The translations under genes and the position numbers were made by a program. From contig JAZLFE010000047.1 in the NCBI GenBank assembly GCA_045615605.1, forward strand, positions 1 to 33,773: 33,773 nt of DNA, read 5' to 3'. The stretch comes from Bacilli bacterium (GTDB lineage Bacteria; Bacillota_I; Bacilli_A; RFN20; CAG-826). The notes beneath the pieces are model-generated. The model saw nothing but the letters and a program-made list of their open reading frames with translations, was not told the DNA's origin and did no database searches. Shown here in pieces: positions 589-21,666 of this stretch (position 1 is its first letter; every line of letters starts with the position of its first letter).

Positions 589-664
589 TGGTGATCCGCC
601 GGAGACTCGAACTCCGGACCCATTGATTAAGAGTCAATTGCTCTACCAACTGAGCTAGCGGACC
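589..664 (-). tRNA. tRNA-Lys (anticodon CUU)
   Basis: Reverse complement GGTCCGCTAGCTCAGTTGGTAGAGCAATTGACT-CTT-AATCAATGGGTCCGGAGTTCGAGTCTCCGGCGGATCACCA: 76 nt cloverleaf, GTTCGA T-loop, encoded CCA. Confidence 0.96.
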
Positions 665-2403: not shown

Positions 2404-2476
2404 AATGTCATTATATAACAGATCATTTTTATTTTGTGACCAGGAAAACATAATTGTATTTTTTAATTAATAAAAA

Positions 2477-3283
2477 GTGCTGAAAATAAACGACCCTTTT
2501 GATTTTACAACTGCAATAACTGCAGATACTACGATATATGCTAAGTTTGAAGAAGAAGTTAAAACCTGGACTGTTACATTTGATACCGGAGATACCGGAT
2601 ATTATGTAGCCCCTCAATTCATTGAAAATGGCAATAAAGTAACTAAACCCGGGGATCCATACATAGAAGGCAAAACATTTGAAGGCTGGTACTATGTTCC
2701 GGATCCAACTAAACCAACTGAAGAAGTTTTGTGGCAATTTGATACTAATACTGTCACATCAAATGTTGAGCTAAAAGCTCATTGGAACTCTAGCGTTTCT
2801 TATACAGTTAATTTCTATGATTTTGAGAATAATATAATAAGTACAGAGACTGTAGAAAGTGGCGAGAGTTTAACTAATATTCCTGATGGCCAAGATTATT
2901 TTGATGATGTTAATAATAATCGTTATTATTTCGTTGCTTGGACACCTGAAGTAGAAATAACTCCAACTCATAACGCGGACTATCATGGAATGTATGACCT
3001 TGATAATAATATAGATTTAGATTTTACTAGCAATAATCCTGAGTACAAAGTTGATGGCAAATCATCGTTTATTCAATATTTAAGATACGGAAATATTGTT
3101 TCTTATACTTTAGATGGTGAATCCGTTGCACCTGCTAATAGTGTTCATGTTTATATAAATGGAAGCTCAACCGAAGCGATTCAAGGCACAGATTATACTT
3201 ACATTAACGGAACAATTACCATTAATACTAAGCAAAATCAAACAGTTAAATACGCTAGTACCATTAGTATTGTAATCGATTAG
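2477..3283 (+). CDS. headless alternative C-terminal cassette of the InlB-B/Flg_new repeat surface protein
   Basis: Begins mid-repeat (DPFDFTTAITADTTIYAKFEE) with no signal peptide or RBS. Colinear with residues 951-1195 of 15344..18931 (YYFVAWTP vs HYFVGWTP, YDLDNNID vs YDINNNID, RYGNIVSYTLDG vs RYGNVISYQLDG). The GTG start is probably not used. Confidence 0.85.
   Translation: MLKINDPFDFTTAITADTTIYAKFEEEVKTWTVTFDTGDTGYYVAPQFIENGNKVTKPGDPYIEGKTFEGWYYVPDPTKPTEEVLWQFDTNTVTSNVELKAHWNSSVSYTVNFYDFENNIISTETVESGESLTNIPDGQDYFDDVNNNRYYFVAWTPEVEITPTHNADYHGMYDLDNNIDLDFTSNNPEYKVDGKSSFIQYLRYGNIVSYTLDGESVAPANSVHVYINGSSTEAIQGTDYTYINGTITINTKQNQTVKYASTISIVID
2490..2554 (+). repeat. inverted repeat, left copy (65 bp)
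   Basis: acgacccttttgattttacaactgcaataactgcagatactacgatatatgctaagtttgaagaa equals the reverse complement of 16019-16083 except at 2513 and 2545. Confidence 0.95.
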
Positions 3284-3303
3284 TTAATAGTGAGGTTTAA
3301 GAT

Positions 3304-6300
3304 ATGAACAAAAGAAAATTATTAGTGTTATCAATCGGAGCAATGTTTCTTGTTTTGCCAGCTACTATAGTAATTGGACACGACACAATTAACAATGTTG
3401 TTAATCCAACAAATGGTCTAAAGAAAGTTACTATTTATTGTGATAATTGTTTTGTAAAAGAAAACAAAGAAGGAGCTACTCAAAGGAAGCAACTTACTAA
3501 ATACGTTCCAGAAAAAGAGAATTTATCTTTTATCTTTACTCCGTCTGCTCAGATTGCTAGCGATGTATTCCCTTACATTTCATCTTTTTTAGTTGATGGT
3601 AACCCAGTAAACTCAGGCTATTACACGTATGTACAAGCCTCTGGCCAATTAGATTTTAGTGCTACTGGTAATGCTAGCATTACAGTTAAATGCGGTACTT
3701 CATTTAGTACCGAATTTACCTATCTTAATAATGAAACTAATGAAGATACAATAACCATTGACTATAACGGTTCACTTGAATCAATTGATTGGGGAGACGG
3801 CACAACAGATCAATTAAAAACGCACACTTATAATAAAAGTAATACTGAAAGAACTATTAAAGTAAATGGCGAAATCAGTTCTATTGAGATAAATTCAATT
3901 AATCAAAATGAAATGCCATATATAACTTCAATTAATTTTGGCGATTCAATTACAACTATTAGAGATAATTCTTTTAATAATTTTACAAATTTAACTTCGA
4001 TAAATTTTGGAAAAAGCGTTTCCTATATCGCAAATACTTCTTTTAATAATTGCCCAAATTTATGCTATATAAATATTGATAAAGAAAACGAGAATTATAC
4101 TTCACCAAAGAATTCTAATGTGCTCTTAGAAGATTCAACATTAATTTTAGCTGGATCAAAATCAGTCATCCCTAGCGAAGCTGAAGAAATAGGTTCAAAT
4201 GCTTTTAGTGGATCTACAATTAGAAATATTACTATTCCAAGTAATGTGAAAACAATTAAATCAAATGCTTTTAATAATTGCAAAAATTTAAGTACTGTTA
4301 AATTCACAAGCGGAATTCAAAATATTAATTCATTAGCCTTTAACAATTGTACAAATTTATCAAATTTAGATTTTACTTCTTTTGATTCTTCCTCTATCGC
4401 TTTTGATATGGCCTCAGATGCTTTTGGTACTTTAACAAACCACTCTTTAAATTTACCAGAAGAGTCACAAGCAAGAGCTTTCGTTGGTCAATTAATACCT
4501 AGCACTTATCAAAATTGTATTGCTGAAGTTTGTGCTGTAACAATAGGTATTAACATACCAGAGGATAGCACTAATAGAGAAGTCAGCGTATTATATTGGG
4601 ATACATCTTCAAATGATATAACAATAGATTGGGGCGATAACTCTAATGATGGATATGTTTTTAATAATCATACTTACAGTAAACCTGGTTCTTATACAAT
4701 TAAAGTATATGGAACTAAAATTGATTCTCCTTGTTTGTCAGATGAAAGCAAATCGTTTGCAACTAATCTTTCTTTTTCATCAAGCGTTCATAATTTAATG
4801 CAAACCGGAGGATTTTCCTATTATAGTAATTTATGTTCTTTTGATGCTAAGAATGCATCATTTTATAATAACACATTACAAGATTATGCTTTTTCAAACG
4901 ATTCAAAACTTACCAATATAGAACTTCCTGATAACTTATTAACGATTTCTAAATATTGCTTTAATAATTGTTTTTCCCTCATTTCTTTAAAAATTCCAAC
5001 TTCTGTAACTTCAATAAAACAATGGGCTTTTTCTAGTTGTTCAAGCCTTGAAAAAATAATTATTCCTACTAATTCTCAATTAAATGAATTAGGTAGTAGT
5101 ACTTTTCATAGCTGCATGTCTTTAACTTCTGTAGACTTTAGTAATGCTAGAAATATTACTAGTCTTCCTGAAGGCTTATTTTGGAAATGTTCTTCTTTAA
5201 CTAGTGCGACTTTTAGTTCTAATATAACTAGTTTAGCTAATAGCGTTTTTAACGGTTGCTCTTCGTTGTCAAATATTTCTTCATTTCCGAATGTTACCAC
5301 TATCGGTTATACTTGTTTTGCTTATACTAAGATAACTTCTTTTGAAATAGGTCCTTCTTGCATAGATATCTCCACAAACAATATTTTCCTTGGTTGCGAT
5401 ACATTAGAATCTTTAAAAGTAAATTCTGCAAACACTGTTTATACAGATTTAGGTCAAAATATAATTCTTAAAAAAAGCGACAGAACATTAGTTGCTATGT
5501 GCAAATCATCTATAATTCCAGATGATTGTATAATACCAAGCGATTCGCAAAATATCTTTATTTGTACACCTGAAGAATTCACTATTCCTAAACAAATAAT
5601 AGATTTACCTAAATATGCTTTCCAAAATAACAAAAACATTAAAAAAGTTATTATTCCTAATACTTTAAAAACTTTATCTTTAAAATGTTTCGAAAATTGT
5701 GTCAATTTAAGAGAAGTTGTGTTTGAAGATGGGTGTCAGCTTACTTCTTTATCAGAAAATTGTTTTAATGGATGTGAAAATTTATCTATAATTAATTTAC
5801 CGTCTTCAATTAAAACATTATTAAAATATTGTTTTAATGGATGTAAAAATTTAACTAAAGTGCCTGTGAGTGATGGACACGTTTTTACTTCTATTGGAGA
5901 TTATGCGTTTGCTGGAACCGGAGTAACAAAAGGTATTTTGTTTAATGCCACGCTTGGAACAAATATCTATAGTGAGTGTACGAATTTAAATGAAATAGAA
6001 ATAGAAGAAGGTGTTACAACAATACCTGCTTCTACATTTAATGGATGTAAAAACTTAGTTAGTGCGGATTTAAAAAATATCGTTACCGTCTCAACCTCAG
6101 CTTTTAATGATTGTAAGAGTCTTGAAACAGTCAAATTTTACGAAGGATTAACTACTATAAGTGCTAAGTCTTTTTATAATTGCGCTATGATTGAAGAATT
6201 GGATTTCCCTAGTACAATATCTACTATTGCATTTTCAACTAAAGATAATCCTTTTATTGGCTGCAATGGATTAAAAAAGATTAGTTTAGCAGGAGAAGAA

Positions 6301-7143
6301 AATGCTAAATATAAGTGTATAAATGGTTCTAACTATATTACTAGTAAAGATGGAACTATATTATATTTATCACTTGTTGGTATTCCAAATGATTCAAAAA
6401 TTATCAATTTATATTCAGGTTCTGTTGCCGGCCTTGAAAAGAATTGTAATATTAATATCCCTGCTCAAATTACTACATTTTCCTATAATTTTATTGCTGA
6501 TGCTAATCTTGTTAATAATGTTACTGTCGATAGCGAAAATACTACTTTTAGTGACTGCGGGCATAATGGTATTTTTAATATAAAAACTTCAGGTAAATGT
6601 TTACTTGTAAGGGCGTTTAGACATACTACTTTATTCGAAGGAGTTACAGAGTTATCAGCTAATTGTTATAGCGACACAGACATTGACAATCCATATTTAA
6701 ACAATTTACCAAGCACTACTACTAAAGTTAATAGTTCAACATTTGTTAATTCAGGGTTTAAATATATAAATTTATCTCAATTTACTACTACTATAGCTAA
6801 GCTTGCTTTTGGTGGTTCTACTAAATTAGAAGAATTTGTTTTGCCAAACACTTCAAGCAAAGATGGAGGTACGCTTATTCCGACCAATTATATTACAGGA
6901 TGTACTTCGTTAAAAAAATGTACTGTATTAAACTACGATAGAGTCCAAAAATGCGAAAATACACTTGGCGATACCCCTTCTTTAAAAGAATTATATTTAT
7001 ATATAAACCCGGAAAATTGCGATAGCAGTAAATTAATTACTACTTCACTTAACAAGGATTTAAAAATATTTGTTCCTTTAGAATATTATTCGAGTTGGGC
7101 TAATAGTTATCCAGATTGGGCTGAACATTTAGTTATAATATAA
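3304..7143 (+). CDS. BspA-type (LRR_5) leucine-rich repeat surface protein, variant B
   Basis: N-terminal basic and hydrophobic segment, many xIxxxAFxxCxxLxxIxLP repeats, two PKD-like IDWGD...HTY modules, GAGGT RBS. Confidence 0.92.
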   Translation: MNKRKLLVLSIGAMFLVLPATIVIGHDTINNVVNPTNGLKKVTIYCDNCFVKENKEGATQRKQLTKYVPEKENLSFIFTPSAQIASDVFPYISSFLVDGNPVNSGYYTYVQASGQLDFSATGNASITVKCGTSFSTEFTYLNNETNEDTITIDYNGSLESIDWGDGTTDQLKTHTYNKSNTERTIKVNGEISSIEINSINQNEMPYITSINFGDSITTIRDNSFNNFTNLTSINFGKSVSYIANTSFNNCPNLCYINIDKENENYTSPKNSNVLLEDSTLILAGSKSVIPSEAEEIGSNAFSGSTIRNITIPSNVKTIKSNAFNNCKNLSTVKFTSGIQNINSLAFNNCTNLSNLDFTSFDSSSIAFDMASDAFGTLTNHSLNLPEESQARAFVGQLIPSTYQNCIAEVCAVTIGINIPEDSTNREVSVLYWDTSSNDITIDWGDNSNDGYVFNNHTYSKPGSYTIKVYGTKIDSPCLSDESKSFATNLSFSSSVHNLMQTGGFSYYSNLCSFDAKNASFYNNTLQDYAFSNDSKLTNIELPDNLLTISKYCFNNCFSLISLKIPTSVTSIKQWAFSSCSSLEKIIIPTNSQLNELGSSTFHSCMSLTSVDFSNARNITSLPEGLFWKCSSLTSATFSSNITSLANSVFNGCSSLSNISSFPNVTTIGYTCFAYTKITSFEIGPSCIDISTNNIFLGCDTLESLKVNSANTVYTDLGQNIILKKSDRTLVAMCKSSIIPDDCIIPSDSQNIFICTPEEFTIPKQIIDLPKYAFQNNKNIKKVIIPNTLKTLSLKCFENCVNLREVVFEDGCQLTSLSENCFNGCENLSIINLPSSIKTLLKYCFNGCKNLTKVPVSDGHVFTSIGDYAFAGTGVTKGILFNATLGTNIYSECTNLNEIEIEEGVTTIPASTFNGCKNLVSADLKNIVTVSTSAFNDCKSLETVKFYEGLTTISAKSFYNCAMIEELDFPSTISTIAFSTKDNPFIGCNGLKKISLAGEENAKYKCINGSNYITSKDGTILYLSLVGIPNDSKIINLYSGSVAGLEKNCNINIPAQITTFSYNFIADANLVNNVTVDSENTTFSDCGHNGIFNIKTSGKCLLVRAFRHTTLFEGVTELSANCYSDTDIDNPYLNNLPSTTTKVNSSTFVNSGFKYINLSQFTTTIAKLAFGGSTKLEEFVLPNTSSKDGGTLIPTNYITGCTSLKKCTVLNYDRVQKCENTLGDTPSLKELYLYINPENCDSSKLITTSLNKDLKIFVPLEYYSSWANSYPDWAEHLVII

Positions 7144-7318
7144 GTTGTTTATTAATGTTTTAATTATATGCAAATAAATATTATTAGATAAAGATTCCAT
7201 GCATCGTTCAAAAATAATACTTTATGATTATGATATACAAAATTATGAGTGTATACTATTAGAAATTTTTAAAATATAATATATTTATTTTTAATATATG
7301 ATAGTATACTAGTATATT

Positions 7319-7969
7319 ATGAAACTTTATTATGGCGCTGATGCACTAATTAAACAACCAGTATTTGGTAAAGGTAATCCTATAAATGATTACGGCCTAG
7401 GTTTTTATCTTACTCCAAATAAAGAGATGGCTAGATTATGGGCAAGTAAAAACACAAATGGTGGATATTTAATAACCTACAAAGTAAATATTAATAATTT
7501 AAAATGTTTAAATCTTAAACGTATTAATAGATTAGATATCTTGAGATGGATAACTATTTTAGTTTCCCATAGATTCTCGCATGATGAATATATTACATAT
7601 AAAGAAAGAATTGAATGGTTAAAAAAGAATTATTCTATTGATATTAATGAATACGATTTAATAATTGGATATCGCGCAGACGATAGTTATTTTATGTATT
7701 CAAGAGACTTTGTTGCAAACGAGTTATCTATTAATGTATTAGAGGACGCCTTAACAAATGGAGAGTTAGGCGATCAATATGTTCTTATAAGTCAAAAAGC
7801 TTTTAATAATATTAAATTCATTAATGCAGAACACGTTGCTTATAGTGATGAATATTCAAGTTTTAGAAATAAAACTCATAACGAATATTTAAATATTAAG
7901 AAGTTTGATAATGAATCTAATACATTTATTCGGGATTTAATGAGGGGGAAGGATTATGGAAATAGTTAA
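7319..7969 (+). CDS. DUF3990 domain protein (ADP-ribosyltransferase-like fold, putative toxin)
   Basis: MKLYYG...KGNPINDYGLGFYLT...A..WA, YDLIIGYRADDSYF and LGDQYVLISQKAF motifs. Confidence 0.8.
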   Translation: MKLYYGADALIKQPVFGKGNPINDYGLGFYLTPNKEMARLWASKNTNGGYLITYKVNINNLKCLNLKRINRLDILRWITILVSHRFSHDEYITYKERIEWLKKNYSIDINEYDLIIGYRADDSYFMYSRDFVANELSINVLEDALTNGELGDQYVLISQKAFNNIKFINAEHVAYSDEYSSFRNKTHNEYLNIKKFDNESNTFIRDLMRGKDYGNS

Positions 7970-8804
7970 CACTATATTGGTAAAGAAGAAATTCGCTACT
8001 CTACTTGAAAAACTCGTTTTAGGCTGTTCATTAAACTATGAAGTGATTGAAGAGAAAATTATTACTGATCCATATTTTTGTTTCTTAGAAAACGGTGGAT
8101 GTAATAATTTTCTTAGTCAATCATATTCATCAATAATTAATAAATTATTTAATATGGAAATTATTTTTGATGAAGAAGTTAAATACTCTCCTATTTATTG
8201 GGCAGGTATGGAATATATGAATATAGTATTAAATACATTTATACCCTTGCAGACTGTTATCCTTTTATGTCCTTTAAAGGAAATGATAAATAATTATTCG
8301 ATTTATCACGAGATGAATGACATTAAATTGGTAGACAAGTTCTTAAAAGAAAATTATCAAAGAAGTATTATTAAGACTCTCGCTAAAAAAAGAGGGATTA
8401 GTATCCCTACTTTAAGTAAATTAACTAATATCAGTGTAACTACTTTAAGGTATTTAGTAGATAATCAACATTTATACAAGACAACTTTTATTAACATTAA
8501 TCAATTAGTAAAGATATTTAAAGTAAGCGATTCAATATTTAAAGAACACGCTGATATAAGTTATTTTCCTCATAACATTCTAGAAGATAAAGTGTTTGCT
8601 AAATGCTTTATTAGTGAAATAAATTATTATTTAAAGGATCCAATTAATATTAATAAAATAAATAATTTGAAATTAGGCATTAGTGGACTTAGCTATGATT
8701 TAAATAAAAAAAATAAGACGGTTGAAATTAATGATGCTTATTTAAAATCATCATTATTTAAAACATTAAAAAAAGTAAATAAAGAAAATAATCTTATTTT
8801 ATAG
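7956..8804 (+). CDS. HTH (XRE-like) domain protein, partner of DUF3990
   Basis: Overlaps the DUF3990 stop, GGAAGGA RBS. YWAG...YHEM region followed by HTH-like KKRGISIPTLSKLTNISVTTLRYL. Confidence 0.65.
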   Translation: MEIVNTILVKKKFATLLEKLVLGCSLNYEVIEEKIITDPYFCFLENGGCNNFLSQSYSSIINKLFNMEIIFDEEVKYSPIYWAGMEYMNIVLNTFIPLQTVILLCPLKEMINNYSIYHEMNDIKLVDKFLKENYQRSIIKTLAKKRGISIPTLSKLTNISVTTLRYLVDNQHLYKTTFININQLVKIFKVSDSIFKEHADISYFPHNILEDKVFAKCFISEINYYLKDPININKINNLKLGISGLSYDLNKKNKTVEINDAYLKSSLFKTLKKVNKENNLIL

Positions 8805-8818
8805 GTTGATGAACACTT

Positions 8819-8840
8819 AAAAGAGATATAACTCTTTTCT
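8819..8840 (+). terminator. possible weak terminator
   Basis: aaaagag-atataa-ctctttt hairpin 14 nt after the stop codon. Confidence 0.4.
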
Positions 8841-9048
8841 CAAAAGTAAAATATTTCAAATCTAGGATGTGGTTTGGTCAAACGTTTAAAGAAGCTTGTC
8901 CAGATACATTAATAAAGAATCAGTTCATTGGTCTTAAATCTTTATAAGATCGAAAAAAACGTTTTGTCGGTAAAAATTAGTAAATAGAATATTAAAGTAA
9001 CCAAATTTATATCTTTTGCATTCTAAACATTGAATATTTTATTAACAA

Positions 9049-9108
9049 TTCGGCAGAAAGTACAATGCATTGTTGTTTTTGCCGAAATTGGTGATATAAT
9101 GCATTATA
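9049..9108 (+). promoter_or_regulatory. palindromic operator-like sites and extended -10 promoter
   Basis: ttcggcagaaa-gt-acaatgcattgt-tg-tttttgccgaa (9049-9086); TGaTATAAT (9092-9100); tataatgcattata (9095-9108). Confidence 0.6.
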
Positions 9109-9119
9109 GGAGAAATATT

Positions 9120-10382
9120 ATGTACTACCATAGAACAATCGAAAATACTATTAATAAAGCTATACAGCAATTTCCTTGTATTACTCTTTATGGAGCAAGA
9201 CAAGTAGGAAAATCAACTTTAATAAGAAACATCTTTGGGAATAAGATTAATTATATTAGTCTTGATGATTCAGAATTAAAACAACAAGCAGAAAATGATC
9301 CTAAATTATTTCTTGATGACCATGAATGGCCAATAATAATAGATGAAATACAAAAAGCCCCATCTCTATTAAACGAAATTAAAATTCGCATTGATAATAT
9401 TACATACGAATGCTTAAAAAAAGATGAGAAAGTACCATTTATGTATGTGCTGTCTGGTTCTAATCAACTAGATTTAAGAAGTAAAGTTGATGAATCACTT
9501 GCGGGAAGAACAGCGATTCTTAAATTATGGAGTCTATCTAATAACGAAATAATGAAAATAAAAGGTTCGCTCTTTAATCCTGAAATCGACATAATCAAAG
9601 AAAAATATAAAAAGCTTAATATAGAGCAAATTTATAAAACAAGAAAACAAATATTTAATGATATTTTTCGAGGTGGAATGCCTAATTATGTAATTAATAA
9701 ATTAGATCGTGAAATATATTTTTCTTCTTATATTAGTACTTATATAGAAAAAGATATTATAAAAAATATTGGATTAAATAAAGAAAATGACTTCCGCAGA
9801 TTCTTAAATTATATGGCTTTAAGGACTGCTCAACAAATTAATTATGATGATATTTCAAGAAGTATTGGGATAGATGCTAGAACGGTTAAGTCTTGGATCT
9901 CGTTACTAATTACTACTGGTATTGCTTTTACACTTGAACCGTACGCGAGAAATTTATCAGATCGAGTAGTTAAAAATGCTAAATTCTACTTCGCTGACAC
10001 TGGATTGTGTTCATATTTATGTAAATGGCAAGATGCCGAAATGCTTGAAAACGGCATAATGAATGGAGCTTTTTTTGAAACATATTGCATTAGTGAAATA
10101 ATAAAAAGTTTTATTAACAATAATGTTGATTATATTGGTAAAGTTTTCTATTATCGCGATCGAGATAAGAAAGAAGTGGACTTAATTATCGAATATGCTG
10201 ATTGTATTGTTCCAATAGAAATTAAAAAAGGAGTCGATTCAATAAAACCCAATTTTAATTTTAATTTTCTTAATAAATACGGCAAAAAGATATTAAACGG
10301 ATTAGTGATAAATTCAAGAAAAGACATTGTTTCGGTTGATAAAAATGTATATCAAATTCCTTTGTTTATGATAGGAATATAG
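9120..10382 (+). CDS. AAA_14 ATPase with C-terminal DUF4143 (PD-(D/E)XK-like)
   Basis: Walker A GARQVGKS, Walker B IIIDEIQK, SGS, ESLAGR, KFYFADTGL, G.FFE, YYRD..KKEVDLI and PIEIK. Start moved to ATG 9120, which follows the AGGAGA RBS. Confidence 0.92.
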   Translation: MYYHRTIENTINKAIQQFPCITLYGARQVGKSTLIRNIFGNKINYISLDDSELKQQAENDPKLFLDDHEWPIIIDEIQKAPSLLNEIKIRIDNITYECLKKDEKVPFMYVLSGSNQLDLRSKVDESLAGRTAILKLWSLSNNEIMKIKGSLFNPEIDIIKEKYKKLNIEQIYKTRKQIFNDIFRGGMPNYVINKLDREIYFSSYISTYIEKDIIKNIGLNKENDFRRFLNYMALRTAQQINYDDISRSIGIDARTVKSWISLLITTGIAFTLEPYARNLSDRVVKNAKFYFADTGLCSYLCKWQDAEMLENGIMNGAFFETYCISEIIKSFINNNVDYIGKVFYYRDRDKKEVDLIIEYADCIVPIEIKKGVDSIKPNFNFNFLNKYGKKILNGLVINSRKDIVSVDKNVYQIPLFMIGI

Positions 10383-10474
10383 TTAATTAAAAAGTATTTG
10401 CTAAAACAGCAAAATTCTATAATTGTATAATGCAGTAGATTAAACTAAATCAATTATAAAAAATTTATCAAATT

Positions 10475-11554
10475 TTAATCAATTAAGTATTGGTTCCAAG
10501 GTGATAAAAAAGATAACGATTGCGTTGCACAAAATAAGAGACGCCCATTGAATTGTGTCTCTTTAACTAAACTAGGACTTGGATGACTATATCTGTTCCC
10601 AATTCCATATGATATAAATAAATTAATTGCAGAATCTTTTAAATCTTTCATTTTCTCCCAATTTCCAAATGATCCATGATGTGGTATTTGAAGATATTTT
10701 ATGGAATTATTTCCTAAATATTTTTTACACAAATCTATCATGTAATCATCGAATTCAGCATCGCCTGTTAGCATCGTAACTTCTCCTAAATTATTAGAGG
10801 GGTGATGTATAACAACTGTGCTTGAGGTATTTAATTTTTTTGACCCTATATATGTCTCATAAATAGATTTTATTTCATTTAATCCGTTTTTATTTAAGGA
10901 TAAATATTTTTTAACATCTTCTAAATCTTTTCCTCCGACTTTTGATGCGATATCATTTTTAATTCTATTGATTGTTTCTTCTTTAATACTTTTATTTATT
11001 AAATAAAATTTCCATTCATGATTGATTATAATTTTAAAATGATAATCATATGCATAATTCGAGTAATTTTCTAGTTTTTTCCATTCATTATGATAATCTT
11101 TATTTCTTTTGTATTCTTGAGAAGAGTATTTTTTTATTAAAGTGTTAAAGTACCTTAAATGACTATCAAAATTATTAGAATTAGCATCTTTTAATGATAA
11201 AAAATAAGATATGAATTCTATATAACAATCATCACTCATATAAGGCAAAATAATGTTTTCAATATTTGCGTAATTATTCAGTATTTCTATTCCGTTAAAA
11301 TGATCATCGTGTAAGTGAGAAATAAATACTAAATCAATTGTCTCTCCTTTAAAAAAATCGTTTTTAATTGCATTTTCTAGATATGTTTCGTGACCGGCAG
11401 ATGTCGAGCCACAATCAAATACAAACCTAAATTGACTTTTGTTCATAATATTACCTTGAGGCGTAATATTATAACAATATGATGAATAATTAACATTGAT
11501 TCTGCCACTATAAAACAGCCCCTGGCCTACATTTAAGAATCTAAATAAATTCAT
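10475..11554 (-). CDS. MBL-fold metallo-hydrolase (ComEC/Rec2-like hydrolase domain, stand-alone)
   Basis: NVGQG, FDCGS, ISHLHDDHFNG (HxHxDH), LTGDA, QIPHHGS and YSHP motifs. Confidence 0.88.
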   Translation of the reverse strand: MNLFRFLNVGQGLFYSGRINVNYSSYCYNITPQGNIMNKSQFRFVFDCGSTSAGHETYLENAIKNDFFKGETIDLVFISHLHDDHFNGIEILNNYANIENIILPYMSDDCYIEFISYFLSLKDANSNNFDSHLRYFNTLIKKYSSQEYKRNKDYHNEWKKLENYSNYAYDYHFKIIINHEWKFYLINKSIKEETINRIKNDIASKVGGKDLEDVKKYLSLNKNGLNEIKSIYETYIGSKKLNTSSTVVIHHPSNNLGEVTMLTGDAEFDDYMIDLCKKYLGNNSIKYLQIPHHGSFGNWEKMKDLKDSAINLFISYGIGNRYSHPSPSLVKETQFNGRLLFCATQSLSFLSPWNQYLID

Positions 11555-11752
11555 AAGTACCTCTCTCTATAAACATTAATATATATTAGTATTTTCGAAG
11601 TGCAACTACAAAATTTAATAATCATAATAATCTTATATTTTATTATCATATTTTCTAGTTTTTCTTTAATTTCCTAAAAAACATAATGTACTATTACACT
11701 TAACTATTTTAGACTTAATTAAAATAGCATTTCTTATAGTGCGTTAATAAAC

Positions 11753-14700
11753 TTACAAAGCAATCATTCTTGATTTAAAGTCATCAGTGTATGCTAGTGA
11801 ATTTTTAAAATTATTGTAATATTCTGATGGGACGTAAATTTCAGTATTATCTCCATAGCAGCACACGTCGCCTGCCGATGTATAATCGATAGAACCTCTT
11901 GTATTAAGGAATAATTTTTTTAAATTCGGCAAAGGCGAAGTGAAAAACGCTTTATTATTAAAAGTTGTACTTAATCCGTTAACTGTTAATTCCTCTATTT
12001 TATCGCAACCAGAGGCTAATAACGCTCCTGTTCCTGTAACTTTTGTACCACAATTAATAATTGCTTTTTTTAAACATGGACAATCCGAAATTAATCCCGA
12101 TCCAGGTACTTGGGCTTGAGTAAATAAGTTTAGATTAAGTGTTTCAAGTTGATGCAAACCAAGTAAAGTATCTGCCATGGATATCTTAAACGCGCTCTTT
12201 AAAGTGTTTAACTTTTTAATATTTTTTGAAGTAAACGAAAATTGTCTAGTACTTGTAAATGTAGAGTCATTAGGAATTTCTTCTGTTAATGCGGTAGCCG
12301 AAAGAATATATGTACTAGAAGCGGTAGCATACAAACAATTTGTTTTTGTGTCAAAGGCAAAATCTGAACTGTTACTTGTAAATTTTTCTACAGAAGATAA
12401 AAATTTAAATGACCCGTTAGCAATACTTGTAACGGCGGATGGTATAATTACCTCTTTAATATCACCAACAAAAGAATTCACAAGAAATTTAGTAGCGTTT
12501 TGTGGAATATTATTTGAGGCGGTTAACACAACTTCATTATTGGAATTCGTGACGCAAGAATTAGCTAAAGTAAAACCGCTCTTCACAGTTCCACTTATCT
12601 TATTTAATTTATCACAATGATAAAAGATATATGCAGCAGTAGTTACATTTAATTTACTAAGATCAACGTTAGGAGCAAGTTCAATTTCTTCTAAACTAGA
12701 ACAATCATAAAAAGTATAACTTTTAATTTCAGTTAATGCATTAGGGCATTTAAATTTAACTAACGAGGAGCAATATGCAAAACCATATAACCCGATTGTA
12801 GATATAGAATCTGGTAAAACAATGTCTTGTAAACTAGAACAATTTTGGAATGCATAATTCCCAATTGATGTTATGGTTGAGTTACTAGAGTTCTTAAAAA
12901 CTACTTTCTTTAAATTTTTACAATTTTGGAAACAAGAAACCGGAATTTCAGTGATAGAGTTAGCCGGTATTGATACTTCCTCAATAACGTTGTTATTTGC
13001 AAAACAAGATTCATTTAAATAGGTAACAGAATCTGGGATATCCACGATTTTAGGAGAGGAGGAAAAAGATCCAGCCGTGATGCCAAGTAACGGGTGAGAA
13101 GAACTGATTTTAGTAAGATCAGTATTTTTAGAAGCCAATAATAAAGTGCTAGAAGATGTTTCAATTAAAGCATTACAATTATCTCTAGAATCATATTTTG
13201 TATTATTAACTACACTTATATTTTCTACGTTATTGCAATTTTTAAATGCATTTTCTCCAATAGAAGATAAAGAAGAGCCAAAAGACAATTCTTTAATATT
13301 TGTATTAGAAAACGCAGCCTTTCCAATACTAATAATATTGCCAAAATTTATATTAGTTAATTTAGAACATCCGTTAAATGCATTATCTCCGAATGAAATG
13401 CATGTGTCAGGCAACTCTATGTTACTAAGATTTTCGCATCCTTTAAATCCTTGAACAGGTATATTAGTTATCGAAGTGCTATTAAATGAAATAGTTTCTA
13501 AGTTTTTACAGCTTTCAAAGCAAGATGAACCAATGCTAGTTAAGGTCGAAGGTATCTCTATGGAGGCAAGATTTTCGCAATTTAGAAAAGCACTGGCTCC
13601 AATTGAAGTAACGTTGTCGATATTAACACTTTTTAACTTTTTATCATTATTAAAAACATAGCTGTTTAATATTTTAACTGTTTTTGGCAAATAAATTTTT
13701 TCTAATGATGTATTGGCTCTAAAGCAGCTTTCAAAAACCACATCATTCGGACTAATATGAGCCACTTTAGAAAAGTCCATTGTTTTACAATTAGTTAAAA
13801 ATCCCATCCCATAATATTTCTCAGTAGTATCTTCAAAAAGTGATTTTACATACTCTGTACAAGAAATGCTTGTAATATATTTATCACTTTTCAAAGCTTG
13901 AGAATAATTGTAATAAGTATTAAAACCAGTTATATTTGTTCCGTAGACTTTAACGGTATAATCTCCTTCACTAGTGTAGGTATGAGTTAGTTCGGTTCCA
14001 GATGATCCATCTCCATAATCAATAGAAGAAACGCCATTAGCATTAATCCCTAAGGATAAATTGGCATTTGGTAATGATGCTAAAATAGTTATCGCTGGTG
14101 TTTGAGCGAAATATGAGTCAGAAATACCAGATGCTTTTAAATTATTTTTTAATGCTGTTGCAAGTGTACTATCAGTAGGAAAAACAAATGGTTTGCTTGG
14201 AATAGAAAGATCAAATGAATCACTAGCAATTATAATGTTACTATCGGTTAAATTAGAAAAATCAATCGTATTAAAAACGTTTCCGACAAAAGCCTTACTA
14301 CCTAATTCGATATCATTATTAAATTTAACCATTTTTAAACTTTCGTTGTTGATGAAAGCATATGGTTCAATTTTTGTGACATTGCCTGGTAATTCTAAAG
14401 AATTAATGGTCGTATTAATAAAAGAATATTGTTTAATAGTTTTAACATCTTCAGAAATTATTGATTTAGAACAGCCTAATAATAAGTCTCCTGTATCCTT
14501 ATTCAATAAAATATTATTGTTATTATTTCCAGAAGTAAAAATCTTATTTTTAGTATCTACAATAATTGAATTTAAAGTCAAAGATTGATCGTTCGAAGAA
14601 AAAATCAAACCGTTAATATTTTTAACATTAGGTCCGACTTTTAAATTTCTTAAATTAGTTAATCCACCTAATGCGCAATTAGGAATGGTATCAACACTGC

Positions 14701-15340
14701 CTTTTAAGGCAATGGCCTTAATATACTTATTACCGTTAGCAATTAAACCATTTGTATCTTCATTATAAAAAGATATAGAACTTATATTCCCATAAACTTT
14801 TACAGTGTGTATATCACTGCTTAAAGTAAATGAATGACTTGATTTTAATTCATCAGTTGTCGAATTATCGCCCCAATCTATTTTAGAAAGCGTTCCATTA
14901 AAATTAAATCCTACTGTTTCATCAGACGTGTTGTTATAGTAGTCAAAACTAATAGTCTCGTTTTCGTCAATATCGGATTTAACAATTATGTTAGTATTTC
15001 CTTTAATTGTAAAAGCTAAATTATTATCAGCATAACTGTAATCGCTACTTTGTGAACCTCCAACAGTAAAATTAAGAATTTTAGGATCGTCAAATGAATC
15101 ATCATTCTTTTTAAAATTACAATTAACCTCATTATTAGCTTGAAACATTTTAGAAAATTTCTTTACATAATTATCTTTACCACTTTCTGATACAGAGCAA
15201 TTTTCGCAGTAAATGTTTAATCTATACATACCGTTATCTACATTCATTATGTTTAGATTTTTAGTATCTGTTTTTATTAAAAAACTAGGAAGGATAATAG
15301 CTGTTCCAATACCTAAAAATACAAAATATTTTTTGTTCAT
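11753..15340 (-). CDS. BspA-type (LRR_5) leucine-rich repeat surface protein, variant A
   Basis: Same architecture as 3304..7143 (hydrophobic N-terminus, IYCENC vs IYCDNC, IDWGD and IDYGD modules, LRR_5 repeats). Starts 3 nt after the upstream stop, GGAGG RBS. Confidence 0.92.
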   Translation of the reverse strand: MNKKYFVFLGIGTAIILPSFLIKTDTKNLNIMNVDNGMYRLNIYCENCSVSESGKDNYVKKFSKMFQANNEVNCNFKKNDDSFDDPKILNFTVGGSQSSDYSYADNNLAFTIKGNTNIIVKSDIDENETISFDYYNNTSDETVGFNFNGTLSKIDWGDNSTTDELKSSHSFTLSSDIHTVKVYGNISSISFYNEDTNGLIANGNKYIKAIALKGSVDTIPNCALGGLTNLRNLKVGPNVKNINGLIFSSNDQSLTLNSIIVDTKNKIFTSGNNNNNILLNKDTGDLLLGCSKSIISEDVKTIKQYSFINTTINSLELPGNVTKIEPYAFINNESLKMVKFNNDIELGSKAFVGNVFNTIDFSNLTDSNIIIASDSFDLSIPSKPFVFPTDSTLATALKNNLKASGISDSYFAQTPAITILASLPNANLSLGINANGVSSIDYGDGSSGTELTHTYTSEGDYTVKVYGTNITGFNTYYNYSQALKSDKYITSISCTEYVKSLFEDTTEKYYGMGFLTNCKTMDFSKVAHISPNDVVFESCFRANTSLEKIYLPKTVKILNSYVFNNDKKLKSVNIDNVTSIGASAFLNCENLASIEIPSTLTSIGSSCFESCKNLETISFNSTSITNIPVQGFKGCENLSNIELPDTCISFGDNAFNGCSKLTNINFGNIISIGKAAFSNTNIKELSFGSSLSSIGENAFKNCNNVENISVVNNTKYDSRDNCNALIETSSSTLLLASKNTDLTKISSSHPLLGITAGSFSSSPKIVDIPDSVTYLNESCFANNNVIEEVSIPANSITEIPVSCFQNCKNLKKVVFKNSSNSTITSIGNYAFQNCSSLQDIVLPDSISTIGLYGFAYCSSLVKFKCPNALTEIKSYTFYDCSSLEEIELAPNVDLSKLNVTTAAYIFYHCDKLNKISGTVKSGFTLANSCVTNSNNEVVLTASNNIPQNATKFLVNSFVGDIKEVIIPSAVTSIANGSFKFLSSVEKFTSNSSDFAFDTKTNCLYATASSTYILSATALTEEIPNDSTFTSTRQFSFTSKNIKKLNTLKSAFKISMADTLLGLHQLETLNLNLFTQAQVPGSGLISDCPCLKKAIINCGTKVTGTGALLASGCDKIEELTVNGLSTTFNNKAFFTSPLPNLKKLFLNTRGSIDYTSAGDVCCYGDNTEIYVPSEYYNNFKNSLAYTDDFKSRMIAL

Positions 15341-15343
15341 AAA

Positions 15344-18300
15344 TTATGCCTCCACAGAAATGGTAGTAGCCCATCTAAACGCTTCTGCTTTAGTATCAAT
15401 AGTAAATCTACCATCGTTATATTGATATCCTGAAGAGACAACAGTACCATCAACTTTAACAGTAATAGTAGATGGGAAAGAGGATCCATCTAATTGGTAA
15501 GATATAACATTACCGTATCGTGCAGTAACACCAAATGTATTCTTTCCGTCAATTGTGAAATTTGTACTAGAGAAGCTGAAGTCGATATTGTTATTAATAT
15601 CATACATTGCGTAATAATCAGCATCAGCATGTATATCTTCTGTAATTACACTAGGAGTCCACCCAACAAAATAATGACGGTAATTTGCATCATCGATATA
15701 GTTATTTGGATCATTTGGCATTTCAAAACTTGAACCTTCGCTAACTTTTATTTGTTCACCGTATTGTCCAAAATCGTCATAGAAAGTAATAGTAAATTTA
15801 GTTGCATCTTCAAATCTCGCATATAAAGTAATATTAGTTGTAATTTCAGTTGCAAAATCGAATTTAGTTCCTGCTTCAGCATCTGTATACCATCCCGCAA
15901 ATTTCTTACCTTCATCAGCTGTTGGACCTGCTATCTCAATAGCGCATTCACCATTTTCAACAGTTTCGGTGTAATATGTATCCTCTCCGTTTTTAAATGT
16001 AACTGTTTTAGTAGTAATTTCTTCAAATTTAGCATATATCGTAGTATCTGCAGTTATTGGAGTTGTAAAATCAAAAGGGTCGTATTGATCTGACGCATTT
16101 TTTATATACCATCCATCAAAAGTATATCCAGCTTTAGTAGGATTCTTAGGTTCATAAGCTGTCGAACCATGTTTAATAGATTGCGTACCATAACTTGTCT
16201 CTTGATCATCCATATCTACAAAACTTACAGTATGGAACACATCTCCACCTTTTTTGAATAGAGCGGTATAAACTTCTGAATACCCGCCTTCTGTTTTAGG
16301 AACATTAAATGGTAAAATACCAATAGCTCCATCAGATTGGCGCTGCCATCCAATAAATATCATTGTAGAATCTGAATTAGAAATAGTAGAAAGTTTATCG
16401 TCGGTTGGAGTGGTATTAAAATTGCCAGTAACATCTAAGTTATCAGTAGTTACTATACCAGATTCATCTTTCCATTGTCCCCCCTTTTCTATATTAGGAT
16501 TAAACTGAACCTTATATTGATTAACAGTATAATTTGCTAATAAGGTTGTGGTATCAGTAAATTTCTGACTATCTGAAATGTCTTCACCGTTTAAAGTCCA
16601 TTTACTAAAGGTGTTACCAATTTTAGTTGCAGTAGGGATACTTTCTTTAATACTTGCCCAAGTGCTTCCTTTAGTTACTACTTTAACAGTACCACCACTA
16701 AGGGTTCCGCCATTAGCATCAAATACAATCGCTACTTGTTCGGCATGTTCGTCCCATTGTGCAATATAAGTAGTGTCTTGTTTTGCTGGAGCTAAATCTG
16801 GAGACCAGCCAGTAAAATAATAAGTTTTACTCTCAGCAGTTTTTATTAAAGTATCGCCAGGATTAGGAATTTCGCCATAATTAGTAGTAACCTTTTTAAT
16901 ATCAGAACCGCCGCCAGTAACCCAAGTACCACCATCTGGATCAAAACTAATTTCATACGTTGCTAATCCGCTCCATTTAGCAACTAAGGTTGTATTAGTG
17001 TTAAAAGTATGATCAGCAAATTCAGAACCATCAATTAACCACTTATCAAAAGTATGACCGGTATATTCTGCAGTAGGTATTTGATCAGAGGAAATTTCGC
17101 TCCACTTAGTTCCTTTATTAACAGTAATCATATTACTACCTGTTTTTAAAGTACCACCATTAGCATCAAAGAAAATACTCACTTTATTTTCTACTTCAGA
17201 CCACCGAGCAGTATATGTAGCATCTTCTGTAGCTTTCGCTAAAGGTTTATCCCAACCTGTAAAGGTCCAAATTTTTCCTGCTTCTTTCTTTTCTAATGTT
17301 CCTGGAACTTGAGGCACTTCACCCCATTTAGTTTCAACTGTCTTATCAGCAGTAGTTTGATCGTCGACCCATGTTCCACCACTAGGTTTAAATGTAATGT
17401 TATATTTATTAACATCACCATATAAAGCATATATTACGGTATTATCTTTGAATTTAGTATCATCAGTGATTTCATCAGTTCCAGAAGCAGAATTTGTATA
17501 TCTAGCTGTATCAGGATAACCATCCTTTTTACATGTAGGAAGTTTATTAGCATCTTTTAAACTCTTGTATGTAGTTCCATAATTAACTGTAAGAGAAGAA
17601 GCGCCACCTTCTGCAATAGAACCACCATTAGCATTTATATAAATAGTAACAGTAGTGACATCGCCCCATTTGCCATTTAATATAAAATGCTCTCTATCTC
17701 CTTCTATAGGATCAGCAGGGAATCCATGGTCCTTATCTAAAGGATTATTAAAGTCCCACTTTTGTTCTTGACCTGAAGAATTAGTCCAATACCAAGCATC
17801 AAATGTTTTTCCTTCAGTAGTTGGATCATCAGGTTTAGTTATCTTTTCACCATAGTTAATTGTTTGAGAAGGTACAGTTGCTCCATCGATAGCAAAATCA
17901 ACGGTAGCAGTTTTAATGTTCTTCCATCTACCATAAATGATAGTGTCAGACTTAATTAATGTATTATCAAAATCAAATGATGTACCGCCTTCCTTTGTCG
18001 TATACCAATTATCGAAGTCATAACCATCTCTTGTTGGATCTGGAGTTGGTCTAGAAGCTTTTTTACCAAATTCAACTGTTTGAGCAGCTACATCCGCGCC
18101 TTCAATACTAAAAGTAACATTGTATTTATTAATGTTCCATTTAGCGTATAAATCTAAATTATCATTAATAGGTGTATCAAAGTCAAATTCCTGTCCCTCA
18201 CTACATTCTTTATTTTTATACCATCCATCAAATGTATAGCCTTCTCTAGTAACAGTTATTGGAGAAGTTGGATAACCTACAGTAACAGTTTTAGTTTCTA

Positions 18301-21545: not shown

Positions 21546-21590
21546 TAAAAATAAAAACTTGATTTGTTGGATTTTTACTTAAAAAAGAAT

Positions 21591-21660: not shown

Positions 21661-21666
21661 TTAATA

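What the first reader, a model, noticed from the sequence alone, without database searches (positions are those of the whole stretch)
2490..16083. 13.6-kb shufflon-like inversion that would swap a surface-protein C-terminus together with its downstream LRR gene
Seen: a 65-bp IR (63/65 identical) at 2490-2554 and 16019-16083. The right copy lies inside the 1195-aa B-repeat gene (Asp951 onward). The left copy is where a headless paralogous C-terminus begins, with no homology to its left. Both copies read AC|GAC|CCT in the same frame, so inversion gives residues 1-950 plus an alternative 263-aa tail (1213 aa) instead of the present 245-aa tail. Each tail is followed by a complete, divergent BspA-type LRR gene, so one flip changes gene 2's tail and all of gene 3 of the operon. 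Established: intragenic inversions swap C-termini in the R64 shufflon, the Mu Gin system and type I hsdS loci. Inference: this is a binary antigenic or adhesin switch with unusually long arms. I do not know of a described case for Flg_new plus BspA operons.
Basis: partly seen in the sequence, partly recalled or inferred. Interest (0 to 1): 0.93.

Follow-up and report, generated by a model that had tools for sequence, protein, structure and literature searches.

The report
Invertase-linked switch for a surface-protein tail
A small gut-type bacterium appears able to flip a 13.5-kb DNA segment, so that a surface lipoprotein gets a different tail and a different leucine-rich-repeat partner gene, using the same design phage Mu uses for its tail fibres, but the flipped form has not yet been observed.

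Summary
A 65-nt inverted repeat (63/65 identical) lies at 2490-2554 and 16019-16083, and the 808-kb assembly holds only these two copies. One arm lies inside a 1195-aa Flg_new lipoprotein gene at Asp951. The other starts a headless, in-frame paralogous tail. In-silico inversion gives an open 1213-aa protein, followed 20 nt later by the second BspA-type LRR gene.

It scores above the NCBIfam cutoff for the Mpi DNA-invertase family, and its closest solved relative is the phage Mu Gin invertase. It is the only serine recombinase in the assembly. Homologues 62-65% identical in related genomes sit beside headless specificity-domain cassettes of Eco57I/MmeI-type restriction-modification genes, a published class of programmed gene-altering inversions.

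The repeat is 97% identical against 54% for the rest of the tails. The headless tail has no ribosome-binding site, yet it has stayed open far beyond neutral expectation.

No reads, contigs or proteins show the flipped form, so activity is inferred (about 0.65). The design matches the Mu G segment, not a shufflon. It is a new target family for a known mechanism.

The parts
909..1511 (-). Serine DNA invertase (200 aa), the proposed catalyst, outside the invertible segment
   Evidence: Pfam Resolvase E = 7.8e-33. NCBIfam NF009949 'master DNA invertase Mpi family', 308.2 bits against a cutoff of 272. PHROG 125 'DNA invertase' E = 8e-43. Best solved relatives are Gin invertase 4m6f/3uj3, with Ser9 of YIRVSSDKQ aligned to the Gin catalytic serine. 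It is the only Resolvase-family match in the assembly.
1804..2451 (-). DUF3800 gene lying between the invertase gene and the left repeat arm; role unknown
   Evidence: Pfam DUF3800 E = 5.6e-5; no NCBIfam, PHROG or PADLOC match.
2490..2554 (.). Left arm of the inverted repeat, at the 5' edge of the silent cassette
   Evidence: 63/65 identical to the right arm.
2477..3283 (+). Headless alternative tail B. The 263 codons used after inversion run from Asp at 2492. It has one Flg_new repeat plus about 160 aa.
   Evidence: Flg_new E = 6e-8; 41% identical to residues 951-1193 of gene 2. No Shine-Dalgarno sequence before its GTG, and the frame is open for 268 codons (P about 3e-10 in random sequence of this composition).
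3304..7143 (+). LRR-B: complete BspA-type LRR gene (1279 aa) with N-terminal signal/anchor, silent-side partner of tail B
   Evidence: Pfam LRR_5 E = 8e-113; GAGG Shine-Dalgarno sequence and ATG 20 nt after the tail B stop.
7319..11554 (.). Cargo in the middle of the segment, as two convergent sets. Plus strand: DUF3990 (7319-7969), HTH protein (7956-8804), AAA_14/DUF4143 ATPase (9030-10382). Minus strand: MBL-fold hydrolase (10475-11554).
   Evidence: Pfam. PADLOC candidate-defence models: PDC-M42A E = 5e-36, PDC-S01 E = 3e-92, weak LmuA E = 3e-7.
11753..15340 (-). LRR-A: BspA-type LRR gene (1195 aa) currently downstream of gene 2
   Evidence: Pfam LRR_5 E = 1.5e-83; 30% identical to LRR-B.
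15344..16018 (-). Tail A: present C-terminal part of gene 2 inside the invertible segment
16019..16083 (.). Right arm of the inverted repeat, inside gene 2 (from the codon before Asp951)
16084..18931 (-). Constant head of gene 2 (residues 1-950): lipoprotein-type signal (…LTTAC) and Flg_new repeats
   Evidence: Pfam Flg_new, 7 stretches, E = 6e-73; N-terminus printed.
18934..21177 (-). Gene 1 of the operon (747 aa, DUF6273), constant, 2 nt upstream of gene 2
   Evidence: Pfam DUF6273 E = 3e-12; no orthologue found in 5 same-genus genomes.

Best explanation
This is a two-state, gene-altering programmed inversion built like the phage Mu G segment.

A constant part lies outside a 13.5-kb segment: the operon promoter, gene 1 and codons 1-950 of the Flg_new lipoprotein gene. 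The segment carries two convergent cassettes at its ends. Each cassette is a tail for gene 2, then a complete BspA-type LRR gene, then one or more further genes.

The serine invertase encoded just outside the far end (909-1511) recombines the two 65-nt repeats. Because both arms are in the same reading frame, each flip fuses the constant head to tail A (1195 aa, followed by LRR-A) or to tail B (1213 aa, followed by LRR-B). The population would then carry two alternative surface outfits.

Shown: the anatomy, the frame, the invertase family, DNA-level conservation of the repeat, and selection on the headless tail. Inferred: that inversion actually occurs, that this invertase catalyses it, and that the proteins act in adhesion or antigenic variation.
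For: 1. Anatomy: the repeats are in frame, the copy is headless, and the flipped ORF is open for 1213 aa with LRR-B 20 nt downstream.
2. The repeat is conserved as DNA, not only as protein. Nucleotide identity is 97% against 54% for the other 221 aligned codons. Identical codons occur at 19 of 20 conserved degenerate residues in the repeat against 46 of 85 elsewhere (Fisher p = 5.7e-4). The best other match of the repeat within gene 2 is 42/65.
3. The headless tail has no Shine-Dalgarno sequence, whereas gene 1, gene 2, LRR-A, LRR-B, the MBL gene and the invertase gene each have one (two other genes checked, DUF3800 and DUF3990, also lack one). Its 268-codon frame is still open. In neutral-decay simulations from tail A, 0.2% of 4000 runs stayed open at 20% substitutions and 0 of 4000 at 30%, while the tails differ at about 46% of sites.
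4. An Mpi-family serine invertase lies 979 nt from the left arm and is the only serine recombinase in the assembly.
5. Sister systems. Among the 13 of 400 other same-order genomes with a 56-70%-identical invertase, G140, G217 and G055 have a headless cassette that begins within 2-89 nt of the invertase start codon. Paralogous copies sit inside long Eco57I/MmeI-type methyltransferase frames in G140 and G217. One of these, in G217, also carries TaqI_C, has a PLD+SNF2 neighbour and has a convergent headless TaqI_C cassette. In G140 the head and the cassette share at least 55 nt at 100% identity, and a contig breaks inside that repeat.
6. Milman et al. 2023 (PMC9881135, sections 26-27 read; section 28 as passages) report three relevant points. 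Headless-copy asymmetry is the strongest predictor of such inversions. Mpi-family recombinases are enriched beside their targets (odds ratio 16.1, P = 8e-48). Long reads confirmed Type II R-M loci with PLD+SNF partners.
7. Control: 0 of 67 other Flg_new loci from public contigs carry an inverted repeat of at least 35 nt at 88% or better, so Flg_new repeat conservation does not generically produce such a repeat.
Against: No flipped form was observed.
- No sequencing run could be listed.
- The repeat core has no exact match in the metagenome or genome collections.
- No long protein carries tail B; the best of 6 hits is 44% identical.
- No close relative of the locus was found.

The contig runs unbroken through both arms, so one orientation dominated in the sampled population.

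The invertase is not immediately next to the arm: a DUF3800 gene lies between them, whereas the sister systems have gaps under 100 nt.

I found no convincing dyad-symmetric crossover site in the repeat. The best is 7 of 9 within 19 nt. A hix-like half-site at the outer edge is a weak impression by eye only.

The spacer is 13.5 kb with four unrelated genes, which is long for this class.

Other homologues of the invertase sit in unrelated contexts: next to a conserved housekeeping-type gene (not identified by a search) in one genus, and next to a DpnII R-M system in G107. The inverted repeats beside three family-level homologues lie at the 3' ends of surface-protein genes, where inversion would change nothing.
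Confidence: 0.65

Rival explanations
1. Relic. An old duplication/inversion left a truncated second copy. The 65-nt identity is a recent gene-conversion patch, and the neighbouring recombinase serves something else, such as resolution or movement of an accessory island. The locus no longer switches.
For: No flipped form was found anywhere. The contig is unbroken at both arms. The invertase is separated from the arm by another gene. Invertase homologues occur in varied accessory contexts. The operon looks accessory, with no gene 1 orthologue in 5 same-genus genomes.
Against: The conversion patch would have to start exactly at the truncation point and in frame. The tail frame has stayed open far beyond neutral expectation despite lacking a start signal. 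The silent LRR gene is intact at 1279 codons. Sister invertases sit beside the same headless-cassette design.
Confidence: 0.17
2. The segment does invert, but through general homologous recombination across the 65-nt repeat rather than through the neighbouring invertase.
For: Between the two mismatches the arms share a 31-nt perfect core. From recall, that is near the minimum length for RecA-type exchange. No recognisable invertase crossover site was found in the repeat.
Against: An invertase of the right family sits next to the locus and is the only one in the assembly. Sister invertases pair with repeats of only 25 nt (G217:C109), which is too short for efficient homologous exchange. I did not search for recA, so its status in this 61%-complete assembly is unknown.
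Confidence: 0.1
3. Assembly artefact: the contig is chimeric across the repeat, and the true genome has a different arrangement.
For: The genome is a fragmented metagenome-type assembly (71 contigs, 61% complete).
Against: Many contig ends share exact 141-nt overlaps. That points to a final assembly k-mer of 141, more than twice the repeat length, so each junction was spanned with unique sequence on both sides. The two arms also differ at two positions.
Confidence: 0.02
4. Tail B is an independent small gene translated from GTG 2477, and the repeat reflects ordinary paralogy.
For: An ORF with a GTG start exists at 2477-3283.
Against: It has no Shine-Dalgarno sequence and no signal peptide. The ORF begins 13 nt before the repeat, directly after stop codons. 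The 97% against 54% identity step is not explained.
Confidence: 0.03

Closest known systems
Phage Mu G segment / P1 C segment (Gin/Cin serine invertases switching tail-fibre genes S-U and S'-U')
   Same: The topology is the same: a constant 5' gene part outside the segment, two convergent cassettes inside (each an alternative 3' gene part plus a whole downstream gene), inverted repeats at the fusion point, and a small serine invertase encoded just outside the far end. Gin is the closest solved relative of this invertase. The Mu anatomy is from textbook knowledge (recalled). Milman et al. cite Grundy & Howe 1984 for it (reference list seen).
   Different: The operon is cellular rather than a phage tail-fibre gene. 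The segment is 13.5 kb against about 3 kb. Four unrelated cargo genes lie in the middle, and one gene lies between the repeat and the invertase gene. The repeat is 65 nt, and no gix/hix-type dyad site was recognised. Dependence on an enhancer and a Fis-like factor is unknown.
Programmed inversions of Type IIG/Eco57I-MmeI-type R-M specificity domains with Mpi-family recombinases (Milman, Yelin & Kishony 2023, PMC9881135)
   Same: The invertases are 62-65% identical. Each has a headless C-terminal cassette beside the invertase gene and a repeat at the domain boundary of a long gene. The headless-copy asymmetry and the recombinase neighbour match the paper's predictors.
   Different: The target here is a surface lipoprotein plus an LRR gene, not a DNA methyltransferase. 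InlB-B-repeat/Flg_new and LRR proteins are not in the paper's Table 1 of enriched targets.
R64 shufflon (Rci, pilV C-termini)
   Same: A constant N-terminal part of a surface adhesin is fused to alternative C-termini by inversion.
   Different: From recall, the shufflon uses a tyrosine recombinase (Rci) and many asymmetric sfx sites that bound several segments; the listing of PMC11852207 mentions Rci and sfx. Here there are only two repeat copies, and the only recombinase in the window is a serine enzyme.
Bacteroides fragilis Mpi (master promoter invertase)
   Same: The recombinase passes the NCBIfam equivalog cutoff for this family.
   Different: From recall, Mpi flips short promoter segments at many loci. 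Here a single 13.5-kb coding segment is flanked by intragenic repeats, and no further repeat copies exist in the assembly. I could not verify the published Mpi site consensus in the library.
Phase variation of BspA-like proteins in Ca. Mycoplasma girerdii (PMC5476646)
   Same: BspA-type LRR surface proteins vary within a population of a wall-less, small-genome bacterium.
   Different: The mechanism there is length change of dinucleotide repeats causing frameshifts, not DNA inversion (passages read).

Membership tests
Small serine recombinase (resolvase/invertase) family | N-terminal catalytic domain with the nucleophilic serine in a Y-x-R-V-S-x-x-x-Q motif | tested here: met
   Pfam Resolvase, residues 2-144, E = 7.8e-33. 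YIRVSSDKQ aligns with YVRVSTNDQ of Gin 4m6f, Ser9 to Ser9.
Small serine recombinase (resolvase/invertase) family | C-terminal helix-turn-helix DNA-binding domain; total length about 180-200 aa | tested here: inconclusive
   Length is 200 aa. The HTH_23 hit at residues 166-195 scores 21.0 bits, below the 24.6 cutoff. The NCBIfam Mpi model covers residues 1-198.
Mpi-family DNA invertase (NCBIfam NF009949) | Score above the curated equivalog cutoff | tested here: met
   308.2 bits against a cutoff of 272, model positions 1-197 of 203.
Mpi-family DNA invertase (NCBIfam NF009949) | Catalyses inversion at its cognate inverted repeats | not testable with these tools
   No reads were available and no flipped form was found in the databases.
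Gin/Hin/Cin-type invertible-segment system | Two recombination sites in inverted orientation flanking the segment | tested here: met
   65-nt inverted repeat, 63/65 identical, two copies only.
Gin/Hin/Cin-type invertible-segment system | Crossover site of about 26 nt with two half-sites in dyad symmetry around a 2-nt core | tested here: inconclusive
   The best dyad in and around the repeat is 7 of 9 within 19 nt. A hix-like half-site at the outer edge was seen by eye only.
Gin/Hin/Cin-type invertible-segment system | Invertase gene adjacent to the segment | tested here: met
   The invertase start codon is 979 nt from the left arm, with one gene between. Sister systems have gaps of 2-89 nt.
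Gin/Hin/Cin-type invertible-segment system | Recombinational enhancer bound by Fis or an equivalent factor | not tested
   No search was made; no model of such an element was at hand.
Gene-altering programmed inversion (sense of Milman et al. 2023) | Inverted repeat of at least 22 nt inside CDSs on opposite strands, no more than 15 kb apart, one copy lacking everything upstream of the repeat | tested here: met
   criteria read.
Gene-altering programmed inversion (sense of Milman et al. 2023) | Both orientations present within a species or population | not testable with these tools
   No run was listed and no same-species genome is held. The collections hold no close relative.
R64-type shufflon | Rci-type tyrosine recombinase | tested here: not met
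   No Phage_integrase match among the 20 window ORFs of at least 100 aa that I scanned. The only two matches in the assembly are on other contigs, C11 and C48.
R64-type shufflon | More than two repeat sites delimiting several invertible segments | tested here: not met
   Only two copies exist in the whole assembly.

The most novel reading that the evidence does not exclude
One flip of a cellular Gin-type segment re-outfits the cell in two ways at once. It exchanges a matched pair of surface parts, the lipoprotein tail plus its cognate LRR partner, analogous to a phage fibre tip plus its assembly or partner protein. It also changes which of two cargo sets lies downstream of the operon promoter. 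One set carries candidate phage-defence genes (PDC-M42A-like and PDC-S01-like); the other is a single MBL-fold hydrolase with a weak LmuA-like match. Surface identity and phage defence would then be coupled in one stochastic switch in a small-genome gut bacterium.
Probability: 0.12. Interest if true: 0.7.

Novelty: new member of a known kind. Interest (0 to 1): 0.5.

Why it matters
If the segment flips, this shows the Mu-type 'constant head, swappable tail plus partner gene' design working in a cellular surface operon of a poorly sampled, small-genome, low-GC gut lineage. It would add Flg_new/InlB-B-repeat lipoproteins and BspA-type LRR proteins to the list of inversion-switched gene families.

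These families are abundant on gut Firmicutes and mycoplasma-like bacteria, and their ligands are largely unknown. A natural two-state switch gives a handle for asking what the tail and the LRR partner bind, and whether they work as a pair.

The locus also shows that one invertase clade serves both restriction-specificity switching and surface-protein switching.

The mechanism itself would not surprise a specialist.

Tried and rejected
Direct evidence for the flipped form was sought and not found.
- The look-up of sequencing runs with window:900-4000 listed no run, so read laying could not be used.
- Exact scans with a 26-nt stretch of the repeat core found 0 stretches in metagenome contigs and 0 in genome contigs.
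- A search of 5.8 billion proteins with tail B for longer proteins gave 6 hits, the best 44% identical. Even the window's own 1195-aa protein was not listed, so the lineage seems absent from that collection.
- Protein-pattern scans with the two-tail alignment A1 gave 21 + 46 loci, all distant. The '94%' of L073 covers only 18 residues, and blastn of L073 and L054 against the window found nothing.
- Gene 1 has no orthologue in 5 same-genus genomes; only two matches near E = 1e-4 over 80-90 residues.

Invertase neighbourhoods.
- I fetched 15 stretches from the 13 genomes that have homologues.
- Inverted repeats appeared in 5 of the 15 stretches.
- In G259, G351 and G338 the repeats lie at the 3' ends (C-terminal anchors) of paralogous surface-protein genes, where inversion would not change coding. 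In G239 they are 71%-identical paralogues. In G230 the repeat is a borderline 22-mer.
- I do not count these as support.

Other negative or unusable results.
- Recombination-site motif: no convincing dyad. The repeats of the window, G140 and G217 share no k-mer longer than 7 nt. All three begin with a purine-CGA, which is too short to mean anything.
- A literature search for a recalled Mpi site consensus found no paper, so I make no comparison with it.
- Promoter and terminator scans gave counts at or below shuffled expectation, so they are uninformative.
- Structure prediction of tail B with the 2-sequence alignment gave mean pLDDT 38.3 and pTM 0.28. It was unusable and no fold search was run.
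- ESM Atlas on tail residues 105-268 scored 0.85 or less, all Flg_new-type clusters, so these are leads only.
- Pfam on the three invertase-adjacent fragments gave 0 families for two of them and a sub-threshold MmeI_TRD hit (E = 0.032) for the third. Their identity rests instead on the paralogous copies inside long Eco57I/TaqI_C frames.
- The second inverted repeat in the assembly (C69) was considered as another invertase target and rejected. It sits upstream of two start codons and looks like a duplicated promoter/operator.
- GC skew was considered as a record of past flips and dropped, because skew here follows the coding strand.
- Complex prediction for the tail with its LRR partner was not run. 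I do not claim binding, and the single-chain model was already poor.
- The supplementary tables of PMC9881135 were not available and could list Flg_new or LRR targets.


Full report
**1. The observation**

The window is a whole contig (C47) of an 808-kb, 71-contig assembly estimated 61% complete, with about 29% G+C.

The repeat finder reports arms 2490-2554 and 16019-16083: 65 nt, 97% complementary, 13464 nt apart. The next best inverted pair in the window is 50 nt at 70%. Against the whole assembly the pair has E = 9e-27, and there is no third copy; other hits are 22 nt or shorter. Similarity stops abruptly at 2490 on the outer side. On the inner side it drops to paralogue level after 2554.

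Both arms read xAC|GAC|CCT in the same frame. The right arm starts at Asp951 of ORF 15344-18931(-), 1195 aa. The left arm is 13 nt into ORF 2477-3283(+).

A scripted inversion gives an open 1213-aa frame. It is identical to the present protein through residue 971 and is followed 20 nt later by the ATG of the 1279-aa LRR gene. The tails are 41% identical (108/263, E = 4e-46). The two LRR genes are 30% identical over 1042 residues. Pfam calls gene 2 Flg_new (7 stretches) and both downstream genes LRR_5, the BspA type.

**2.

ORF 909-1511(-) encodes a 200-aa serine recombinase, supported by four searches:
- Pfam Resolvase, E = 7.8e-33.
- NCBIfam 'master DNA invertase Mpi family', 308 bits against a cutoff of 272.
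- PHROG 'DNA invertase', E = 8e-43.
- Closest solved structures are the phage Mu Gin invertase (4m6f, 3uj3), with the catalytic serine motif aligned.

It is the only Resolvase-family match in the assembly. The two tyrosine-recombinase matches are on other contigs. Its start codon is 979 nt from the left arm, with a DUF3800 gene between. A tRNA-Lys lies just beyond its 3' end.

**3. Is the repeat more than paralogy?**

Codon-aligned, the first 21 codons are 97% identical at the nucleotide level. The remaining 221 aligned codons are 54% identical. Identical codons are used at 19 of 20 conserved degenerate residues in the repeat, against 46 of 85 elsewhere (Fisher p = 5.7e-4). The best match of the repeat to any other Flg_new repeat end in gene 2 is 42/65.

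As a control, none of 67 Flg_new loci pulled from public metagenome and genome contigs has an inverted repeat of at least 35 nt at 88% or better. The DNA itself is therefore being conserved or homogenised at exactly the point where the headless copy begins.

**4. Is the headless tail alive?**

It has no Shine-Dalgarno sequence before its GTG and no signal peptide. Gene 1, gene 2, both LRR genes, the MBL gene and the invertase gene all have GGAG/GAGG-type sites; two other genes checked, DUF3800 and DUF3990, also lack one. Gene 2 begins with a lipoprotein-type signal ending in LTTAC.

Even so, its 268 codons are open. The chance in random sequence of this composition is about 3e-10. In simulations of neutral substitution starting from tail A, 0.2% of 4000 copies stay open at 20% substitutions and 0 of 4000 at 30%, without modelling indels. 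The tails differ at about 46% of sites.

A tail that cannot start its own translation but has been kept open needs a head, and inversion supplies one.

**5. Sister systems**

In 400 other genomes of the same order, 13 have an invertase 56-70% identical. Seven of those 13 genes lie within about 350 nt of a contig end.

In G140, G217 and G055 the stretch between the invertase and the contig end is a conserved open frame that begins within 2-89 nt of the invertase start; two of the three lack a start codon. The same domain occurs inside long frames elsewhere in those genomes. Pfam identifies those frames as Eco57I/MmeI-type methyltransferases. In G217:C109 the frame also has a TaqI_C specificity domain, an upstream PLD + SNF2-helicase gene, and a convergent headless TaqI_C cassette.

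In G140 the long frame on contig C10 and the cassette beside the invertase share at least 55 nt at 100% identity, and C10 ends inside the repeat.

This is the class that Milman, Yelin & Kishony (PMC9881135) predicted and confirmed with long reads. I read sections 6, 26 and 27 (part 1) and passages of sections 28-29. They report three relevant points:
- Headless-copy asymmetry is the strongest predictor of such inversions.
- Mpi-family recombinases are enriched next to targets (odds ratio 16.1, P = 8e-48).
- They accepted repeats up to 15 kb apart.

The invertase clade to which the window's enzyme belongs is therefore repeatedly found doing this kind of C-terminal cassette swapping.

**6. Evidence that does not fit, or is missing**

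No flipped form was seen. No sequencing run could be listed. The repeat core has no exact match in two large contig collections. No long protein carries tail B. No close relative of the locus was found.

The contig is unbroken at both arms. Because many contig ends overlap by exactly 141 nt, the assembler's k-mer probably exceeded the repeat length. That argues against a chimeric contig, but it also means one orientation dominated in the sample.

I could not recognise a crossover site. The best dyad is 7 of 9, and the repeats of the window, G140 and G217 share nothing longer than 7 nt.

Other homologues of the invertase sit in unrelated contexts. The inverted repeats near three family-level homologues lie at the 3' ends of surface-protein genes, where inversion would change nothing.

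**7. Mechanism proposed**

The segment 2555-16018 is bounded by the repeats and holds two convergent units:
- Tail A, then LRR-A, then an MBL-fold hydrolase, on the minus strand.
- Tail B, then LRR-B, then DUF3990, an HTH protein and an AAA_14/DUF4143 ATPase, on the plus strand.

The constant part lies outside on the right: the promoter region, gene 1 and codons 1-950 of gene 2. The invertase lies outside on the left. Recombination between the arms fuses the head to one tail or the other and places the matching LRR gene behind it.

This is the topology of the phage Mu G segment (Sc | Sv-U … U'-S'v | gin; recalled textbook knowledge). It is not the topology of the R64 shufflon, which uses a tyrosine recombinase and many sites. 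Both of those shufflon features were tested here and not met. I put 0.65 on a working invertase-driven switch, 0.17 on an inactive relic, 0.10 on inversion by general recombination, and a few percent on an artefact or an independent small gene.

**8. Novelty**

The mechanism is known. The target appears new.

Two full-text searches found no report of inversion switching for these families. One used BspA / leucine-rich repeat with DNA inversion / phase variation. The other used Listeria-Bacteroides repeat / InlB B-repeat with invertase / inverton / shufflon. In the second search, none of the 10 listed of 54 papers contained either repeat-family term.

BspA-like proteins of Ca. Mycoplasma girerdii vary by dinucleotide-repeat frameshifts (PMC5476646, passages). 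I file the locus as a new member of a known kind.

**9. Cargo**

The middle genes match PADLOC candidate-defence models: PDC-M42A E = 5e-36, PDC-S01 E = 3e-92, and a weak LmuA match. No terminator-like site was found between either LRR gene and its downstream genes, but that scan performs at chance level. A flip might therefore also change which cargo lies behind the operon promoter. This is speculation and is scored as the novel case.

Noticed in passing
window 7319-11554: The middle of the invertible segment carries genes matching PADLOC candidate phage-defence models: DUF3990 protein to PDC-M42A (E = 5e-36), AAA_14/DUF4143 ATPase to PDC-S01 (E = 3e-92), and MBL-fold hydrolase weakly to LmuA (E = 3e-7). 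They form two convergent sets, each co-oriented with one LRR cassette.
   Followed up: partly
window 21403-21672: Upstream of gene 1 there are two arrays of direct repeats: about four copies of a 33-nt unit (21421-21546) and a run of 10-nt TTTTGTTAGA-type units (21591-21672). They lie in the likely promoter region of the surface operon and could be regulatory or length-variable.
   Followed up: no
window 589-664: A tRNA-Lys(CTT) gene on the minus strand lies about 240 nt beyond the 3' end of the invertase gene. The surface operon has no orthologue in 5 same-genus genomes, so the region may be an accessory island.
   Followed up: partly
G000 contig C69 (L125) 3047-3105 and 10970-11028: C69 looks like part of a conjugative plasmid (Rep3 initiator, T4SS pilin, TraG-type coupling protein) that also encodes Flg_new_2, LRR_5 and Flg_new surface proteins. 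A 59-nt inverted repeat (83% identical), containing a TTGTACAA palindrome and a -10-like TGCTTAAAAT, sits upstream of two of these genes. It reads as a duplicated promoter/operator rather than an inverton.
   Followed up: partly
L132 (G140:C10:1-55) with L050 (G140:C6:242-296); L133 (G217:C109) 6679-6703 and 7498-7522: Related genomes carry Eco57I/MmeI-type R-M genes with headless TaqI_C-type specificity cassettes beside invertases 62-65% identical to the window's. In G140 a contig breaks inside a repeat of at least 55 nt at 100% identity. These are probably active specificity switches of the published kind.
   Followed up: partly
L038 (G259:C10) 6672-6720, 8070-8112, 12771-12826; L041 (G351:C67) 6795-6906 and 13101-13212; L042 (G338:C9) 1582-1669 and 4152-4235: Family-level homologues of the invertase sit among paralogous surface-protein genes whose last 15-40 codons (C-terminal membrane anchor) are 81-88% identical at the DNA level while the rest of the genes is not detectably similar. 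Inversion between these repeats would not alter coding, and the reason for the local DNA conservation is unexplained.
   Followed up: partly
window 25577-26951: A HipA_C-domain kinase gene (25577-26467) lies directly downstream of an HTH_3 (Xre-type) gene (26469-26951), a likely HipBA-type toxin-antitoxin pair next to prfA/prmC.
   Followed up: no
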